Origin: a virus
Lineage: Duplodnaviria; Heunggongvirae; Uroviricota; Caudoviricetes
Length of the DNA stretch: 28,161 bases
Strand: one strand, 5' to 3'
IMG/VR virus record: IMGVR_UViG_2579778529_000004
Location: 1-28,161 of that record
Of this stretch, positions 21,001-27,000 are shown piece after piece; positions within the stretch are counted from its first letter, which is position 1; each line of letters begins with the position of its first letter. The position numbers are program-made.

Positions 21001-24000
21001 ACGCGGGGCTTTAATTCATCATCGCCCTGGATTTCTGTGATTTTTTTCTTTAAGGGCAACACCAGACTTTCCCCGCGCTCGTATTCGTCTTTGAGGCGAG
21101 GCAACTGGTCGGATAAATCCGCCGGGCTGATGTCAGTTATCCCCGCGTATTCGTATACGGTCTTCACGCCAGCCACAGCCAGCAACGTGACGATCTGTGT
21201 AAGGCTACGTTCAGTGATGTGCCCTGCGCGGTAAACACGCACACACTGACGGCTATCATCAATAATTTGATAACCGGTAATATCTTTCAGGTGTTCATCT
21301 GACAGAACGACAGGCGGCACATTGTCGGCGGCAATATGCTTACCTGCCCATTCCTGCCACTCTTTCGCATGGCTCCACGCATCACTACCCGCAAAGATGA
21401 TAACCTCCGTCATTTTGTCGGCTGGCTGGTGCTTTAAGTTTGGTGCGCGCTTCATTTTGCCTTTCCCCGTTCACGAATAATTTCACGTACTGCCTTAATG
21501 CGTTCCATTCCTGTAACGCGCATGATTCTGTCGATGTCGCTTAATTCTGCTGGTGGTGCTTTACTTACCAAGGTGAACTCCCTGTCAAAGCGCATATGTG
21601 ACGACACGCAGGGATGCGCATAACCTTCGCGGATATAGGTCACACGAAAATCATCGACGGTTTTGATCGTTATCGTGCTGCCGTATTTATCCTGGAAAAT
21701 ATCGCCGGGGCGGATTTCAGGCCGAGCGGGGCCGCTGGCAGTAAAGCCAGAATTTTTCTTTTTCATGTTTTTTACTCCAGAGGCAGCTTTTTAGCGGCGA
21801 GCTCAATATCAGATGTCAGAGAAACCTGTGTATTTGCCAGGTCTAACAACAAAGAAATAAGAATTTCTTCTCTGCTATCGGATTTATCGGTGCTAAGGCT
21901 GTTCATCCACATATTGACGACTTCCCTGATTTTTTTCGCAGAGTGCAGGGCTTCAAATGCCAGGTCTTCAATATCATGTTTATTTCGCATAATCGCCCCC
22001 GCCATTTTCACAATCAGCAATCAGGATGGCTTTTGCCTCATTCAGCGCCGTATCAGCACTAAATTGCATGACAGCCAGTGAGTGAGGAACGAAAGCCCCG
22101 GCATATTCTGTTTCGCTGGTGGCGTGCTTATGCGCCTTGTCTGCGATAACAGAAATATCAATCAGCGCGTGCATCAGCGTTCTGATGGCTTCGGCGGCTG
22201 CGTCCGGACGGGTGTTATTACACATGGCGTACCTCCTGACGAATACGGGCAGTAAATACCATCACGCAGCCGGCCGGGGATTGCTGGCGGGCTTCCTGTT
22301 CGCTGGTGGCCTCAATGGTAATCACGCGCGGCTTAGCCGTGCTCAGGGCGATAAAACGCCAGATGTATTTATTCAGGTTGTGCGAGTCCCGCCCTTTCGG
22401 GTGTGTGGTATGATTTAACATAGCTACCTCGATACTTTCGCTATCGTTGGTGGTTAGAAGCCCCGTTACTGCTCCAACAGTGCGGGGTTTCGTCGTTTCT
22501 GCACCTTGCATAAACAAGGTGTAAGACACAATGTAAAGCAGCAGTGTCTTACACGTCAATCCTTCAAAATAATTTTTTTTCGTGTATATTGTCTTACACC
22601 AAAAACATAAGGAGTTAGACATGGCAACAGGTCCAAAGAATGCAAAATCACAATCTGTAACTGCACGTATTGCCCATGAAATTATTGAAGGCATGGAAAA
22701 AGTGAAAGAAGAAGGCGAAAGTACAGGGCAGTTTATAAGCGCAGCCATGCGTGGCGAGATCAAACGCCGCCAGCGCCGCAAGGCCAAAGAGCAGGAGTAA
22801 CCATCACCAGCGCCGTGGTGAGAGTAACTACGGCGCATTGCTATGCAGGTGCTTACCATGAACGATAAAGAGTTAAAAAAAACACCACCACAAACACGGA
22901 AAGGACAGCGCAAAAAGATAGCGCATGAGCATGAATCAGAAAGATTCGCCCCCTGTGCGTTTGCTCTTGAGAAATTCCTTAAGGAGCACAAGAAAAAGCT
23001 ATCATTGCAAACCTGGGAACGAACCGAATCTGACTGATCAAATTGCCCACCAGCCAGCAAATCGCTATGATGTTCGGGCTTATGTTTAGTGTTTTCCCAT
23101 TGGCGACCGCCCCCGGTCGCCTTTGTTTTGTCACTGAATGCAGTTGTCAAAGTAAAACTCAGGCTGATATTCACGTATCAGCCTTTTTTCTTCTTCCTCC
23201 AGTTCACGCTTTTTGCGCTTACAGGCCTGTAGCTCCCTCCCCTTCTCACTGGCACTTATTTGATATTGCTCTTTACGGCGGGAAAAATCCTGCAATGCGC
23301 CCCACGGGATACCATAAGCCCCTGTCTTTCTGATACCTGGTATCACATTCCTGAATACCCAGTTACTGAAACGATGAGCAAATGTGCCAGGCGTCGTTGC
23401 TTTGCGGCTGCGGGCTATTAGTTTGTAGAAACCTGACTCAGAGATAATGCTCATATTCTGATTTCCTCCGGGGGTGTAAGTTAAATTTACTCCCTTTTCA
23501 TCATCATCAAGCATCTGCAACGCCGTACGCGAATTGGTCAGTTCCAGCGCAGCGCAAACATCCTTTGCAACAAACCACGGATCGCCGTTCAGATACACCA
23601 CGCGAACGTTCACACCATCAAAGCGCAGAACGACCAGATCACGAATATCACAGAATTTTTTCACATGACGTGCGTCACCCTTGCCCGTCACGGCAATATT
23701 TTTATTCATCGCTTTCTACCTCACATACAAAAAACCCCGCATTGCGTGGTGCGGGGTTGTCGGTAATTACTTATTGGCGTTTTTGTATGGGCTGTTTACT
23801 TCCTTTACTCCTGGCGGATGCATAACCCACCAGAGCACATCAGAGAGCAACCAGGAAACAGACACTTTCCCTAAATGAGCACGAGCAGGAAATGCTCCCT
23901 CCTGTTCAAGTACCCAACGTCTGCTTCTTGAAAGCCCGGTACGATTGGCACACTCATGTTCGCGTATACGGCGATCATACGGTTCGCCATGCTCTTTCAG

Positions 24001-27000
24001 AATCTGAATGCGTTCTTCGGGTGTAGGATAAATAAATTTTTGCATAAAAATATCACCTATAAAAAAACCCGCCAAAAGACGGGTTGATTATATCTCATTT
24101 AATTTAGCTCAGGGTTTCCATTCACCCTTTACCCATTCCAGCACCTCAGATAAGCGCCAGACTTTTGTTTGTGGGCCAATACATATTTTTCGTGGAAATT
24201 TTCCTTCCTTTTCAAGTAACGATCTGTGTCTCCTGCCAAGAGCAGTTAACCATGCACATTCATCTTCCTTAATCATCCTGTCGATTGTTTTATCATTTTC
24301 AAGTTCTTCACGCGTAACTATTTGAATCATTACCATCACCACTAATTAGCTTATTCAGGTAGTCGTACCACCAGTTCATAGCTTCTTTTTTTCTGTCCAT
24401 ATACTGGCTTCTGTTATAAACCCCGGCAACACCGCCTAATGTGTGCCCAAGCAACTGTTCAACCACATTATGTTCAAAACCATGATCACTTAGCTTTGTG
24501 GCAAACACTCTTCGCATATCATGCGCCGTCCATTTCTCCGAGTGTTTCATCCTTTTCCATGTCTTACCGATAGTTACGCTTGCCGTACACTGACGCATAT
24601 CAAACCCAATCACATTTTCTTTGTTACCTGTTATTTTTTTTAACGTAACTAACCAGTTAAACATGCCATCAGGAATCGGTCTGATTATTTCCCTGCCATT
24701 TTTGCTATGATCAGCGGGAACGCGCCATAATTTCTTATCAAAATCCCACTCTCCCCAGGAGGACAGTAATACTTCTGACAGTCGGCAACCAAAAACTACC
24801 AGGAAACGTAAAATAATTCGGTTTTCATATGATAATTCGTGATTGTCATAATCAGTATTAATACTTCGCCATAAATCTCTGATTTCATCATCTGTTAAAA
24901 CCCTGCTTCTTCGCGCAGACTTTTTTCCCACATCACAGACCTCAAGATCATCAATTTCATGACTAATCGCGTATTTTCTTACCCGACAAAATTTAAGCGC
25001 CTGTTTTGATATACGCAATAAAGCTCCGGCCTGTACAGGTGCTACTTTTTTTATTTTGTCAAAGCACTTGATCCACATAGATATTGAGCAATCACTAAGT
25101 GGTACATGACCAATCACCGGATAAATATGTTTACCAAAGCACTGCCTGATATGTTCTGCTCCCCTACGCTTATCCATTGCATAATTATCAAGCCAGTATT
25201 CAAGCGCCTCACGAACGGTAACAGGTTGCAAGGTGGCTTCCCGTTCAATTTTTATCTGAATCCGTGGATCTCTGCCCTCCGCAAGCCAGGTTCGACACTG
25301 ATCGCGCATCTCTCTCGCTGATTTGAGACTCAGATCAGGATATTTTCCAAGTGTCAGCCAGATGGGCGCGGTTCCCCTTCCCGCCAGTCTGTAAAAGAAA
25401 ACAAAACTAACACATCCGTATTTACTGACCCGTACCGAAAGCCCGTTACCATCAGCGATGGTTTCCTGCCTCTCACTCCTGCGCCCAAGCAGGGAACGAA
25501 GTTTTTTATCGCTCAGTTTGTTTAGCGCCATGTGATTTATAACCCGTTTTTGCAATACACAGTGCAATACACAAATGATGAAAACAGCCAGAACCTTCCA
25601 GAAAAAACAAAAACGACGAACAAGAAAAAATCTTTTTCTTTCATTTGGTTACTAAAAAAATCAGGACAGGCCGCACTGTTGTTACGGCGTGATGTTACGT
25701 TCTTGGTAAAAAAATTCACCCGCGCAGAGACCTGTTCTTTCGCTTTTTTCGCCAGGCGACGCAGATCATCCCAGCGTTTACAGATGCCCAGGCCGGGATT
25801 CGCTTTCTGCCAGACCGTTTCATCAAACGGATCATCTCCCTCATCGAGGGTGTAAATAATCGCAAAGTAGGAGTCGTCTTTTACCGCGCCCTCCACGTCG
25901 CTGTTATAGCCACGCAATACCTTGATGGCGTAATCACGCTGCTCGTAACAAATCCCTTCCTTGTTAAACCCTGCCGTGGTGATACCAAATAAAAGGGACT
26001 GCAGACGGGCACCGGTTGCCGTTTCCAGAACGTCCCACACGTCACGGGTTTTATGTGCATGCAGCTCATCAATAATGGCGCAGTGGATGTTCAGACCATC
26101 CAGGTTGTTTGCATCCGAAGAAAGCGGTTCAAATTTTGATGCGCTCTGCTCCTGGTAAATCGCCAGCTTGTTGAAATCAAACAACCGCCCGAGTGTCGAC
26201 CGGGCTTTTCTGACCATATTTTTGGCGTCTTCAAACACGATTCTGGCCTGGTCACGCGTAGTTGCGGCTGAATACACCTCAGCACCGCCTTCACCATCTG
26301 CCCCCGTCATATACAGACCGATACCCGATGACAGGGTTGATTTTGCGTTTTTACGGGCGACTTCGTTGTACGCCGTCCGGAACCGGCGCACCATCACCGG
26401 ACGTCCGCTGCCATCGCTGCGCATGACAACTTCCCCGGTCTCTTCATTGACCAGCGGAATGACAAAACCAAAAATATTAATGAGGATAAATACATGCCAG
26501 TCCATCAACTCAATAGGCTGGCCTGCCAGCGCCCCTTTTACATGAGGCACAAATTTGTAGAAATTCAGGATGTGCTGCGCACGGGGTTCACTGAAATAAA
26601 TCCCCCGCTCTTCGCCGTACTTCAGATCATCAAGAAAACGCTGGCAGGCCAGACGGACAAATTCGCCAGCGACAATTTCTCCTGCAACAACACGTTCGGC
26701 GTAGCGGATCCCGTCAGCCACTTTTGCCATCAGTCTCTCGCTTTTAAAAGTTCCGCCAGCGGATCAACATCATCCGGTCCGGCGGTATTTACTTTCGCCC
26801 GGCTTGCCGGTGACATACCAAACTCTGCAAGCATCGCCCGGATCCGCTTCCAGGCATCCGCTTTCATCGCAGCAGCCGGGTGTGCCTTAATCAGCACATC
26901 ACCGTTCTGCGTTTCCGTGCGGTAGGTATAACCCTCAGCATCAAGTGTTTCGCAGTGATGCCGGTATTCGGTGTAGGCTTCCACCAGTAACTCGAGTGCA

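What the first reader, a model, noticed from the sequence alone, without database searches (positions are those of the whole stretch)
23131..24336. Bro-N antirepressor-like gene and two tandem AlpA-like genes next to the integrase
Two AlpA-family regulators in tandem is uncommon and suggests separate roles, for example excision control versus transcription control. The Bro-N protein is a candidate antirepressor that could derepress the resident helper, analogous in role to the P4 factor that derepresses P2. A terminator (23727-23756) separates the AlpA genes from bro.
Basis: partly seen in the sequence, partly recalled or inferred. Interest (0 to 1): 0.45.

Follow-up and report, generated by a model that had tools for sequence, protein, structure and literature searches.

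The report
Control region of a prophage-embedded satellite
The three genes are the known integration and regulation module of a small phage satellite sitting inside a gene of its own helper prophage; the gene pair is normal for this lineage, and the one fresh detail is a conserved transcription stop signal in front of the likely master-switch gene.

Summary
On the minus strand lie int (24308-25531), alpA1 (24109-24330), alpA2 (23767-24045) and a Bro-N gene (23131-23709). The reported terminator is real (T2, 23723-23758). A second one (T1, 24056-24085) was missed.

The context explains most of it. The genes open a ~14.6 kb capsid-forming PICI inserted in, and co-oriented with, terL of an HK97-like prophage. 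This is a helper-embedded PICI of the published A:Terminase_1 type. The Int/AlpA zone followed by a Bro zone is the published PICI layout, and published profiles for sister elements read 'Int,Phage_AlpA,Phage_AlpA'. So tandem AlpA is rare among PICIs generally but normal here.

New here:
- AlpA1 and AlpA2 are distinct orthologue groups kept from Escherichia to Xenorhabdus.
- AlpA1 always abuts int: it overlaps it, lies within 10 nt, or is fused in frame.
- AlpA2 is the closer relative (60%) of the tested EcCICFT073 activator.
- In all 15 loci with a verified start codon, a terminator hairpin sits 18-25 nt before its ATG, leaving no room for a promoter.

Best model: AlpA1 is Int's excision partner and AlpA2 is a terminator-gated master switch, opened by read-through of helper late transcription. 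This is inferred, not shown. The helper-antirepressor role for Bro has no support beyond the domain name.

The parts
24308..25531 (-). Satellite tyrosine integrase (407 aa from ATG 25531; the mechanical ORF starts at TTG 25567).
   Evidence: Pfam Arm-DNA-bind_3 1.1e-17 and Phage_integrase 4.7e-19. 99% identical to the E. coli 042 copy and 66-71% identical to the Xenorhabdus copies whose int is followed by alpA1.
24109..24330 (-). alpA1: Int-coupled AlpA-family winged-helix protein (73 aa). Overlaps the int stop by 23 nt. Proposed excision cofactor.
   Evidence: PF05930 1.9e-09. Orthologues at 60-70% identity in Xenorhabdus, always within 10 nt of int or overlapping it, and fused in frame to Int in Salmonella L008 and E. 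coli L010.
24056..24085 (-). T1: intrinsic-terminator hairpin plus T-tract, immediately followed by the RBS and ATG of alpA2.
   Evidence: dG -13.8, z -4.4. A hairpin plus T-run lies 18-25 nt before the alpA2 ATG in all 15 loci with a verified start codon, with at least 6 different stem sequences.
23767..24045 (-). alpA2: AlpA-family protein (92 aa) with an extra N-terminal helix. Proposed master switch, orthologous to the canonical PICI alpA.
   Evidence: PF05930 7.2e-10. 60% identical to EcCICFT073 AlpA, against 48% for alpA1. phrog_2790 2.4e-34. AF2 pLDDT 86; best fold matches are the GIsul2 and RdfS excisionases.
23723..23758 (-). T2: intrinsic terminator between alpA2 and bro, immediately followed by the bro RBS and ATG.
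   Evidence: dG -17.5, z -3.05. The same terminator precedes bro in a single-alpA O157 element. It is absent in the eight Xenorhabdus loci where the alpA2-to-next-gene gap could be read.
23131..23709 (-). bro: 192-aa Bro-N protein with a satellite-specific N-terminus and a helical C-terminus. First gene of the 'Bro zone'; function unknown.
   Evidence: Pfam Bro-N 5.6e-20. phrog_2593 1.7e-85 covers only positions 1-191 of 255. 1767 homologues, and the best 120 listed are almost all 191-194 aa and almost all from E. coli. No phage record covers >=80% of it. AF2 confident only for helix 152-181.
23102..23130 (+). Plus-strand terminator closing the convergent ylcI transcript just downstream of bro.
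   Evidence: dG -17.5, z -6.1. Conserved next to bro in L002 and next to ylcI in L014.
22621..22800 (+). ylcI/ynfO-family gene, the only plus-strand gene of the module.
   Evidence: NCBIfam NF041551 7.2e-19. Same position in EcCICFT073, O157 and 042 elements.
22518..22600 (.). Divergent promoter region with three copies of GTGTAAGACAC / GTGTCTTACAC. Candidate operator for AlpA2, YlcI or Bro.
   Evidence: Repeats D8, I6 and I7. It holds the only minus-strand sigma-70-like site in 21400-25700 (22559-22530) and a plus-strand site at 22563-22590.
22218..22421 (-). icd-like gene, first gene of the replication operon.
   Evidence: NCBIfam phage_ICD_like 1.1e-18.
25551..25571 (-). Doubled TGTATTGC arm motif on the int side of the attachment site.
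   Evidence: 5 matches against 1.09 expected. Matches the HE-PICI-specific motif tgTGTATTGCantgTGTATTGCa of PMC10111431.
11140..11160 (-). Second copy of the doubled TGTATTGC arm motif at the far end of the satellite.
25700..26730 (-). 5' part of the helper prophage terL, interrupted by the satellite. Junction core TTGGTAA at about 25702.
   Evidence: Pfam TerL_ATPase 8.5e-28 plus the start of TerL_nuclease. Junction sequences. Same split in E. coli 042.
10328..11056 (-). 3' part of the helper terL. Junction core TTGGTAA at about 11058.
   Evidence: Annotated as 'terminase TerL endonuclease subunit, missing N-terminus' in 042.

Best explanation
The region is the integration zone and first Bro-zone gene of a capsid-forming, helper-embedded PICI. 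The satellite spans about 11057-25705, is inserted in the terL gene of an HK97-like prophage, and points the same way as that gene.

Proposed working, all inferred unless marked as shown:
1. int and alpA1 form one translationally coupled unit. AlpA1 is Int's dedicated recombination cofactor, an excisionase or directionality factor. It is the positional counterpart of the int-overlapping gene iolg of PICMI satellites.
2. alpA2 is the counterpart of the canonical PICI alpA, the switch whose expression starts excision, replication and late gene expression.
3. alpA2 has no promoter of its own (shown from sequence). Terminator T1 ends 19 nt before its start codon, so alpA2 is made only by transcription that reads through T1. 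bro sits behind T2 in the same way.
4. In the embedded state, the polymerase most likely to pass T1 and T2 is the termination-resistant, Q-modified RNA polymerase of the helper late operon. It enters the satellite from terL without meeting a terminator. Helper late transcription would therefore be the inducing signal in cis. T1 and T2 would keep the switch off in the lysogen.
5. AlpA2 then activates the satellite's own promoters, for example the divergent ylcI/icd promoter region with its triple GTGTAAGACAC repeat.
6. Bro is a satellite-specific DNA-binding accessory regulator of a variable, dispensable zone. It is not a helper antirepressor.
For: Element identity:
- Split terL, a full head and packaging module, int, a DUF927 primase and no tail genes.
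- The same layout in E. coli 042.
- The HE-PICI-specific doubled TGTATTGC motif at both ends.
- The four-zone order described in PMC10111431.

AlpA1 works with Int:
- In the 12 loci where the int-alpA1 junction was examined, it is fused in frame in 2, overlaps int by 23 nt in 6 and by 4 nt in 1, and lies 9-10 nt downstream in 3.
- PICMI satellites need int, an int-overlapping gene and alpA for excision.

AlpA2 as the switch:
- It is 60% identical to EcCICFT073 AlpA, which is experimentally necessary and sufficient for induction. AlpA1 is 48% identical.
- AlpA2-type genes occur without AlpA1 (L018, L025), so AlpA2 is the ancestral single alpA.

Terminator gate:
- T1 lies 18-25 nt before the alpA2 ATG in all 15 loci with a verified start codon. 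These come from Escherichia, Salmonella, Erwinia, Arsenophonus and Xenorhabdus and carry at least 6 different stems.
- Three chromosomal PICIs instead have a 365-nt spacer or an intervening gene, a promoter-like site, and no terminator before alpA.
- No minus-strand terminator lies between the helper terL 5' part and int, and no minus-strand sigma-70-like site lies in 22600-25700.
- In 042 the helper antiterminator gene and lysis genes lie upstream in the same orientation.

Bro:
- Searches show a satellite-specific architecture.
- The gene after alpA is a variable region of unknown function in cf-PICIs.
- A Phage_pRha gene replaces it in Xenorhabdus, and only a remnant is left in EcCICFT073.
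Against: - Nothing here is experimental. No transcript, excision or binding data exist for this element.
- Both AlpA proteins have the same excisionase-type fold, so the fold cannot say which is the directionality factor and which is the activator. In PICMI the inducible alpA, not the int-overlapping gene, is the trigger of excision and does not regulate transcription.
- Simple promoter scans are weak evidence for the absence of promoters.
- After excision the circular satellite no longer receives helper read-through, so alpA2 expression would then need another route.
- T2 is absent in Xenorhabdus, so gating of the Bro-zone gene is not general.
- RNAalifold on the automatic alignment gave no covariation signal, because variable loop sizes misaligned the hairpins. 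Conservation of the hairpin rests on per-sequence folds.
Confidence: 0.55

Rival explanations
1. First reader's model. Bro-N is an antirepressor that inactivates the helper prophage repressor, as P4 epsilon does for P2, so the satellite can induce its resident helper. The two AlpA copies split excision control and transcription control.
For: PHROG families matching the protein are named 'anti-repressor', as are many database names. The AlpA split is compatible.
Against: - Names are annotation transfer, not tests.
- Only the Bro-N DNA-binding core is shared with phage proteins. No ANT, KilAC or P22AR_C domain is present, and the last 64 positions of phrog_2593 are unmatched.
- The gene is behind two terminators with no promoter and is co-oriented with helper late genes, so it would be expressed after helper derepression.
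- Published PICI biology has the helper inducing the satellite, not the reverse.
- EcCICFT073 keeps only a bro remnant yet is efficiently mobilised.
- The zone is swapped for a pRha gene in Xenorhabdus.
Confidence: 0.1
2. One of the AlpA proteins is itself a processive antiterminator, like AlpA of Pseudomonas aeruginosa. It would load onto RNA polymerase and allow it to pass T1 and T2.
For: Two intrinsic terminators directly follow the two alpA genes. P. aeruginosa AlpA works this way.
Against: The shared name is a coincidence.
- P. aeruginosa AlpA is an eight-helix protein with a 21Q-like fold, with functional residues numbered up to 142.
- A profile of the AlpA1/AlpA2 family finds only the GIsul2 excisionase in the PDB.
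- The confident AlpA2 model matches excisionases, not 21Q or that AlpA.
- T1 lies upstream of alpA2, so AlpA2 could not open its own gate from a cold start.
Confidence: 0.05
3. T1 and T2 are ordinary operon-end terminators and partial attenuators. Basal read-through from the int promoter gives graded, decreasing expression of alpA1 > alpA2 > bro. Induction works in trans exactly as in chromosomal PICIs, through an unknown helper factor acting on a promoter upstream of or within int-alpA1. Helper late read-through plays no special role.
For: The published induction mechanism for Gram-negative PICIs is trans-activation of alpA transcription with AlpA autoactivation. HE-PICIs are also found at off-target chromosomal sites, where no helper read-through exists.
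Against: The chromosomal PICIs examined have a long int-alpA spacer with a promoter-like site and no terminator. The AlpA2-type loci all have the terminator and no spacer. This is a systematic difference that the trans model does not explain.
Confidence: 0.25
4. The two alpA genes are a redundant recent duplication, with one copy decaying.
For: They are paralogues, 46% identical.
Against: Each copy has its own orthologue group conserved at 60-75% identity across genera, with group-specific termini (KGEWKP in AlpA1; an N-terminal PTPEQRIQIL helix and a PP.V tail in AlpA2). Their positions relative to int and T1 are fixed.
Confidence: 0.05

Closest known systems
Helper-embedded PICIs (HE-PICIs), A:Terminase_1 site groups (Tommasini, Mageeney & Williams 2023, PMC10111431)
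   Same: - Inserted in, and co-oriented with, a prophage terminase large-subunit gene without a replacement sequence.
- Doubled TGTATTGC motif at both att arms.
- Zone order Integration (Int, AlpA), Bro, Replication, Late.
[quoted passage not shown]
   Different: The paper does not discuss the AlpA doublet, the Int-AlpA1 coupling and fusion, or the terminators. It proposes passive late read-through only in general terms. The profiles I could read are for site 132 in Klebsiella and Salmonella, and this element's exact site group was not looked up.
Capsid-forming PICIs, prototype EcCIEDL933 (bioRxiv 10.1101/2022.09.08.507074; 10.1101/2025.02.11.637232)
   Same: About 15 kb; int, alpA and a DUF927 primase plus its own capsid, protease, portal, connector, HNH, TerS and TerL; no tail genes. 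The packaging module is 78.6% identical at DNA level over 70% of its length to an EcCIEDL933-type element. The gene after alpA is a variable region of unknown function.
   Different: The EcCIEDL933-type element is chromosomal (roxA/phoQ region). It has one alpA separated from int by 365 nt with a promoter-like site and no terminator, and a different gene after alpA.
EcCICFT073 AlpA, the experimentally defined activator of Gram-negative PICIs (Fillol-Salom et al. 2018, PMC6092414)
   Same: AlpA2 is 60% identical. The neighbours are the same downstream: bro (a remnant in CFT073), plus-strand ylcI, icd-like, DUF4222, primase, ssb.
   Different: CFT073 has a single alpA with its own helper-inducible, autoactivated promoter. 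Here there is a second, Int-coupled paralogue, and alpA2 lies directly behind a terminator.
PICMI satellites of Vibrio: int, the int-overlapping gene iolg, and alpA (PMC10803314)
   Same: A small gene overlaps the 3' end of int and is needed, together with Int and a separately controlled, phage-induced alpA, for excision. Some PICMIs carry two or three alpA copies.
   Different: The iolg families have no recognised domain, whereas here the int-overlapping gene is itself an AlpA-family member. Homology to iolg was not tested. PICMI AlpA did not regulate transcription.
Satellite P4 left operon: vis (AlpA-like excisionase and regulator) followed by eta/kil (Bro-network gene) with termination control
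   Same: The gene order AlpA-like then Bro-network, and expression of the Bro-network gene dependent on overcoming termination (as summarised in PMC10111431).
   Different: P4 uses the CI RNA/seqA system. No C4 or isrK RNA is detectable here. From my own knowledge, P4's derepressor of the helper is epsilon, which is unrelated to Bro-N, and no epsilon counterpart was identified.

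Membership tests
HE-PICI (helper-embedded PICI) | Integrated inside a prophage late gene, disrupting it, with int, alpA and primase co-oriented with that gene | tested here: met
   terL is split into 25700-26730 and 10328-11056. All satellite core genes and the helper late genes are on the minus strand. The same holds in E. coli 042.
HE-PICI (helper-embedded PICI) | Doubled TGTATTGC motif in two co-oriented copies flanking the attP centre (about 81 and 132 bp away) | tested here: met
   Motif pairs at 11140-11159 and 25552-25571. They lie about 79 and 134 nt from the TTGGTAA junction cores, measured from the motif edge. Published description.
HE-PICI (helper-embedded PICI) | Integrase belongs to the single HE-PICI/fis-PICI clade | not tested
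   Only the domain content (Arm-DNA-bind_3 plus Phage_integrase) and 46-71% identity to other terminase- and tail-gene-embedded integrases were checked. No phylogeny was built.
Capsid-forming PICI (cf-PICI) | int, alpA and pri-rep plus its own capsid, protease, portal, connectors, HNH, TerS and TerL; no tail genes; about 15 kb | tested here: met
   ORFs and Pfam hits. 27-41% identity to the helper's own head and packaging proteins. Size about 14.6 kb.
Capsid-forming PICI (cf-PICI) | Induced by a helper phage, forms its own small capsids and uses helper tails | not testable with these tools
   Requires induction, transfer and electron-microscopy experiments.
Phage_AlpA (PF05930) excisionase/regulator family | Match above the Pfam gathering score, and a MerR-like winged-helix excisionase fold | tested here: met
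   39.0 and 37.7 bits against a cut-off of 21. Profile hit to 8c3t at 6.3e-12. AlpA2 model pLDDT 86; TM 0.84, normalised to the target, against the GIsul2 excisionase.
PICI master activator AlpA (as in EcCICFT073 and EcCIEDL933) | Helper-induced expression, autoactivation, necessary and sufficient for induction | not testable with these tools
   Only homology is available: AlpA2 60% and AlpA1 48% identical to EcCICFT073 AlpA.
Bro-N domain proteins (PF02498) | Bro-N domain above the gathering score | tested here: met
   72.2 bits against a cut-off of 25.6, residues 34-124.
Phage antirepressors (Ant/KilAC/P22AR type) | Bro-N or AntA-like N-domain combined with an ANT, KilAC or P22_AR_C C-terminal domain, and full-length similarity to phage antirepressors | tested here: not met
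   No second Pfam domain. phrog_2593 is matched only over positions 1-191 of 255. No record among 50,697 phage genomes covers >=80% of the protein.
Phage antirepressors (Ant/KilAC/P22AR type) | Binds and inactivates a phage repressor | not testable with these tools
   Needs expression in a helper lysogen and interaction assays.
Q-like antiterminator AlpA of Pseudomonas aeruginosa | Eight-helix protein with a 21Q-like fold and a C-terminal HTH, functional residues numbered up to 142 | tested here: not met
   AlpA1 and AlpA2 are 73 and 92 aa. The profile search of the PDB does not retrieve it at E<=10. Foldseek with the AlpA2 model retrieves excisionases only. Description of the P. aeruginosa protein.
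P4-type immunity (CI RNA/seqA within the Bro-network gene) | C4 or isrK RNA family match in or near the Bro gene | tested here: not met
   No Rfam match at gathering score in the window, and none to C4 or isrK at E<=5 in 21400-25700.
PICMI-type int/iolg/alpA excision module | Small gene overlapping or abutting the int 3' end, plus a separate alpA | tested here: met
   23-nt overlap here. Overlap, a gap of at most 10 nt, or fusion in all 12 loci where the int-alpA1 junction was examined. Sequence relatedness to iolg families was not tested.

The most novel reading that the evidence does not exclude
In helper-embedded PICIs the master-switch gene (AlpA2 type) has given up its own helper-responsive promoter. 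It is instead locked behind a conserved intrinsic terminator placed about 20 nt before its start codon. Induction would then occur in cis: only the termination-resistant, Q-modified polymerase of the helper's late operon, running from the interrupted late gene into the satellite, can open the lock. A second AlpA paralogue has become a dedicated partner of the integrase, and in some lineages a C-terminal domain of it. This would be a mode of satellite induction different from SaPI Stl derepression, from trans-activation of alpA in chromosomal PICIs, and from P4 immunity. No paper in the searchable library combines PICI, alpA and antitermination.
Probability: 0.3. Interest if true: 0.6.

Novelty: new member of a known kind. 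Interest (0 to 1): 0.35.

Why it matters
As filed, the finding is ordinary. It re-describes the integration and Bro zones of a published satellite family, and near-identical copies sit in dozens of sequenced E. coli genomes.

The follow-up gives two concrete, testable points about an open question in satellite biology, namely how Gram-negative PICIs sense their helper. The phage inducer of alpA was still unidentified in the 2018 paper that defined it (PMC6092414), and I found no later identification in the papers read.
- A position-conserved, sequence-variable terminator sits directly in front of the AlpA2-type gene. Together with the co-orientation with helper late genes, it suggests a read-through mechanism for embedded satellites.
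- The Int-AlpA1 coupling and fusions nominate AlpA1 as a directionality factor. This gives a recognisable family to the otherwise anonymous 'int-overlapping gene' role described in PICMIs.

Both points could be settled with standard genetics in E. coli 042 or similar strains.

Tried and rejected
- **Rfam search for P4-like immunity RNAs (C4, isrK).** Nothing at gathering score. The only weak hits were the terminator halves of the Trp and Thr leader models, which merely re-detect T1 and T2.
- **AlpA as a Q-like antiterminator.** Recalled from the P. aeruginosa literature and rejected after testing. There is no sequence or fold relation, and the protein has a different size and architecture.
- **AlphaFold2 of Bro from a single sequence.** pLDDT 40, unusable apart from a C-terminal helix. 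No fold search was run on it. The available homologues were too similar (>=86%) to build a useful alignment.
- **RNAalifold on a MAFFT alignment of T1 leaders.** Variable loop lengths misaligned the hairpins and no covariation signal came out. Replaced by per-sequence hairpin detection.
- **NCBIfam and PADLOC scans of Bro, AlpA1 and AlpA2.** No NCBIfam family, and only marginal PADLOC matches (E about 1e-3).
- **phmmer of AlpA2 against the PDB.** It returned spurious influenza haemagglutinin matches at E about 2e-3. These were ignored as compositional chance.
- **Considered and rejected: the 318-aa ORF 22218-23174.** It is a read-through artefact that spans the icd-like gene, the antisense of ylcI and the bro 3' end.
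- **Considered and rejected: the TTG start at 24075 for alpA2.** It lies inside the T1 hairpin.

Full report
**1. What is at the coordinates**

All relevant genes are on the minus strand.
- A tyrosine integrase lies at 24308-25531, with Arm-DNA-bind_3 (1.1e-17) and Phage_integrase (4.7e-19) domains.
- alpA1 lies at 24109-24330 (73 aa; PF05930 1.9e-09). It overlaps the end of int by 23 nt.
- alpA2 lies at 23767-24045 (92 aa; PF05930 7.2e-10).
- A Bro-N gene lies at 23131-23709 (192 aa; PF02498 5.6e-20, residues 34-124).

The TTG start at 24075 from the mechanical ORF list lies inside a hairpin. The ATG at 24045 has an AGGTGA ribosome-binding site, and RefSeq uses that start in E. coli 042. The two AlpA proteins are 46% identical.

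I call it T2. The region holds 9 terminator-like sites against 4.7 +/- 2.1 expected. The three clean ones cluster within the roughly 1 kb of the finding. The remaining 12 kb of the element has no comparable minus-strand terminator.

**2. The surroundings explain the module**

The window is the late region of an HK97-like prophage: tape measure, tail, head-tail, capsid, protease, portal, terS and HNH. Its terL is split into a 5' part (25700-26730) and a 3' part (10328-11056).

Between the two parts lie about 14.6 kb carrying int, alpA1, alpA2, bro, ylcI, an icd-like gene, DUF4222, a DUF927 primase and ssb. They also carry a complete second head and packaging set: capsid 16434-17603, protease, portal, connector, HNH, terS, and terL 11581-13242. 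There are no tail genes. The satellite's head and packaging proteins are only 27-41% identical to the helper's.

This is a capsid-forming PICI that is also a helper-embedded PICI as defined by Tommasini, Mageeney and Williams.
- The junctions share a TTGGTAA core.
- The doubled motif TGTATTGC-n4-TGTATTGC, which that paper reports as specific to HE-PICIs, occurs once near each end: 11140-11159 and 25552-25571. That is 5 matches in the window against 1.09 expected.
- E. coli 042 carries the same composite. An antitermination-protein gene, lysis genes, HNH, terS and the 5' part of terL all lie upstream of int in the same orientation.

That paper's general Gram-negative PICI plan is an integration zone (Int, AlpA), then a Bro zone, then replication, then late genes. 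The finding covers the first zone and the first gene of the second.

**3. Is a tandem AlpA pair unusual?**

In general, yes. A 2025 paper states that typical E. coli PICIs encode one AlpA. EcCICFT073, an EcCIEDL933-type cf-PICI and a chromosomal ST648 cf-PICI each have one.

In this lineage, no.
- All seven gene profiles I could read from the Tommasini supplement, covering A_Terminase_1_132 elements of Klebsiella and Salmonella, start 'Int,Phage_AlpA,Phage_AlpA'. One has three.
- The int-alpA1-alpA2 trio recurs in Xenorhabdus at about 70% protein identity, again inside a prophage terL.
- A genome-wide scan with an AlpA2 profile found 12 more loci in Xenorhabdus, Arsenophonus and Erwinia.
- In E. 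coli, 36 of 5426 complete genomes carry the cassette at >=80% coverage.

The pair is therefore recorded in published data but never discussed.

**4. The two paralogues are different things**

AlpA1-type and AlpA2-type proteins form separate orthologue groups with their own termini. AlpA1 ends in KGEWKP. AlpA2 has an extra N-terminal helix (PTPEQRIQILK...) and a PP.V..VN.P tail.

Of 17 loci with an AlpA2-type gene, 14 also have an AlpA1-type gene, always directly after int. I examined the int-alpA1 junction in 12 of these.
- In 2 (Salmonella L008 and E. coli L010) it is fused in frame to the C-terminus of the integrase, giving 474-477-aa proteins that align to all 73 AlpA1 residues.
- In 6 it overlaps int by 23 nt, and in 1 by 4 nt.
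- In 3 it lies 9-10 nt downstream.

The other three loci have AlpA2 alone. One of them (L025) is embedded in a prophage tail gene.

AlpA2 is 60% identical to the AlpA of EcCICFT073, which is experimentally necessary and sufficient for island induction. AlpA1 is 48% identical. The fusions and the obligatory coupling are Rosetta-stone-type evidence that AlpA1 works with Int. The closest functional precedent is the PICMI satellites, where int, an int-overlapping gene of unknown family (iolg) and a separately regulated alpA are all needed for excision.

The fold cannot separate the roles. The AlpA2 model (pLDDT 86) best matches the GIsul2 and RdfS excisionases, and the family profile finds the same GIsul2 protein.

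**5. The terminators are the most informative feature**

In the window, T1's stem ends 19 nt before the alpA2 ATG, and the ribosome-binding site fills the gap. No promoter can fit. The same arrangement, a GC-rich hairpin, a T-run, GGAG, then the ATG 18-25 nt after the stem, is present in all 15 loci with a verified start codon. These come from five genera and carry at least six different stem sequences. Position and structure are therefore conserved while sequence is not. An alignment-based covariation test failed for technical reasons.

T1 is present even where AlpA1 is absent, so it belongs to alpA2. The three chromosomal PICIs examined differ. EcCICFT073 and the EcCIEDL933-type element have a 365-nt int-alpA spacer, and the ST648 element has an extra gene between int and alpA. 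All three have a promoter-like site and no terminator before alpA.

T2 relates to bro in the same way. It also precedes bro in a single-alpA O157 element. It is absent in the eight Xenorhabdus loci where the downstream gap could be read, where the next gene follows alpA2 after 13-19 nt. So T2 travels with the bro cassette.

No minus-strand terminator separates the helper terL 5' part from int. The only minus-strand sigma-70-like site between 21400 and 25700 is the one in front of the icd operon.

**6. Most likely mechanism (inferred)**

- In the lysogen, whatever transcription reaches int-alpA1 stops at T1, so the switch protein AlpA2 and Bro are not made.
- When the helper enters its late phase, Q-modified polymerase from the late promoter ignores terminators. 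It runs through the 5' part of terL into the satellite and transcribes int and alpA1 (excision), then alpA2 and bro.
- AlpA2 then drives the satellite's own promoters. A candidate target is the divergent ylcI/icd promoter region, which carries three copies of GTGTAAGACAC.

This gives substance to the general suggestion by Tommasini et al. that helper late transcription may continue into the satellite. No paper in the searchable library links PICI, alpA and antitermination.

The main rival is that T1 and T2 are simple attenuators and that induction is in trans, as in chromosomal PICIs. I give it 0.25. The idea that AlpA itself is an antiterminator was tested and rejected. The P. aeruginosa protein of that name is an eight-helix protein with a 21Q-like fold and no detectable relation.

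**7. Bro**

The protein matches PHROG 'anti-repressor' families, but only through the Bro-N core. The best family is matched over positions 1-191 of 255, and there is no second Pfam domain. No record among 50,697 phage genomes covers >=80% of the protein.

The 192-194-aa form is very common in E. coli satellites. A Phage_pRha gene replaces it in most of the Xenorhabdus elements examined (one, L017, keeps a Bro homologue). An unrelated gene takes its place in the EcCIEDL933-type element. It is reduced to an unannotated 105-bp remnant in the fully mobilisable EcCICFT073. The cf-PICI literature calls the gene after alpA a variable region of unknown function.

With its position behind two terminators in a late-co-oriented unit, a role in derepressing the resident helper is unlikely (about 0.1) but not excluded. 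It could still matter when the satellite enters a new lysogen. The P4 parallel is vis-eta, an AlpA-like gene followed by a Bro-network gene under termination control, and not epsilon. No P4-type CI/seqA RNA is present.

**8. Verdict**

The object is a new member of a known kind.

Two details are worth following up: the Int-AlpA1 coupling and fusion, and the conserved terminator that gates the AlpA2-type gene in embedded satellites.

Noticed in passing
window 10328-11056 and 25700-26730; junction cores about 11058 and 25702: The helper prophage terL gene is split by the satellite, so the prophage cannot package until the satellite excises. The same composite is present in E. coli 042. This is the published HE-PICI configuration.
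   Followed up: yes
L008 2949-4382 (Salmonella GCA_040732035.1); L010 184-1608 (E. coli GCA_902839605.1): Integrases of 474-477 aa carry a complete AlpA1-type domain fused in frame at the C-terminus. I found no description of such Int-excisionase fusions in the papers read.
   Followed up: partly
window 22518-22600: Three copies of GTGTAAGACAC / GTGTCTTACAC (an inverted pair 14 nt apart plus a third copy 45 nt on) lie between the divergent ylcI and icd-operon promoter-like sites. This is a candidate operator, and a similar GTGT...ACAC pattern is visible at the equivalent place in Salmonella L008.
   Followed up: no
window 11342-11512: ATAACCCGC repeats lie between the satellite terL stop and the attachment site: three direct copies 21-22 nt apart, facing three inverted copies. 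This is a candidate cos/TerS-binding site or origin.
   Followed up: no
L005 and L006 (Xenorhabdus GCA_002632755.1, contig NJAK01000002.1): Tandem arrays of int-alpA1-alpA2-pRha units are interleaved with TerL_nuclease fragments. This suggests repeated or nested insertions of the satellite into terL copies.
   Followed up: no
L010 2016-2261; L011 and L012 784-1242; L015 about 3949-4440: IS200-type (Y1_Tnp) transposase genes are inserted just upstream of the T1 hairpin of alpA2 in several genomes.
   Followed up: no
one search hits, e.g. P0137 (301 aa, 4 matched stretches), P0154, P0175 (176 aa, 2 stretches): About twenty of the 150 best representatives related to AlpA1 contain two to four AlpA domains in one polypeptide. 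Duplication of this domain recurs outside PICIs.
   Followed up: no
L003 9001-9105 (E. coli CFT073, EcCICFT073): An unannotated 105-bp remnant, 91.7% identical to window 23416-23523 (inside bro), lies between alpA and ylcI of the model PICI EcCICFT073. That island has lost bro.
   Followed up: partly
NZ_AP027404.1 3480121-3484844 (E. coli EC416; hit H1): The only 100%-identical record carries an IS1414 insertion of about 1.3 kb within the stretch matching window 22200-25600. The window comes from a close relative without that insertion.
   Followed up: no
window 27862-27887 (-): A strong terminator-like hairpin with a T-tract lies inside the helper late region upstream of HNH and terS. It is consistent with a late operon that depends on antitermination.
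   Followed up: no
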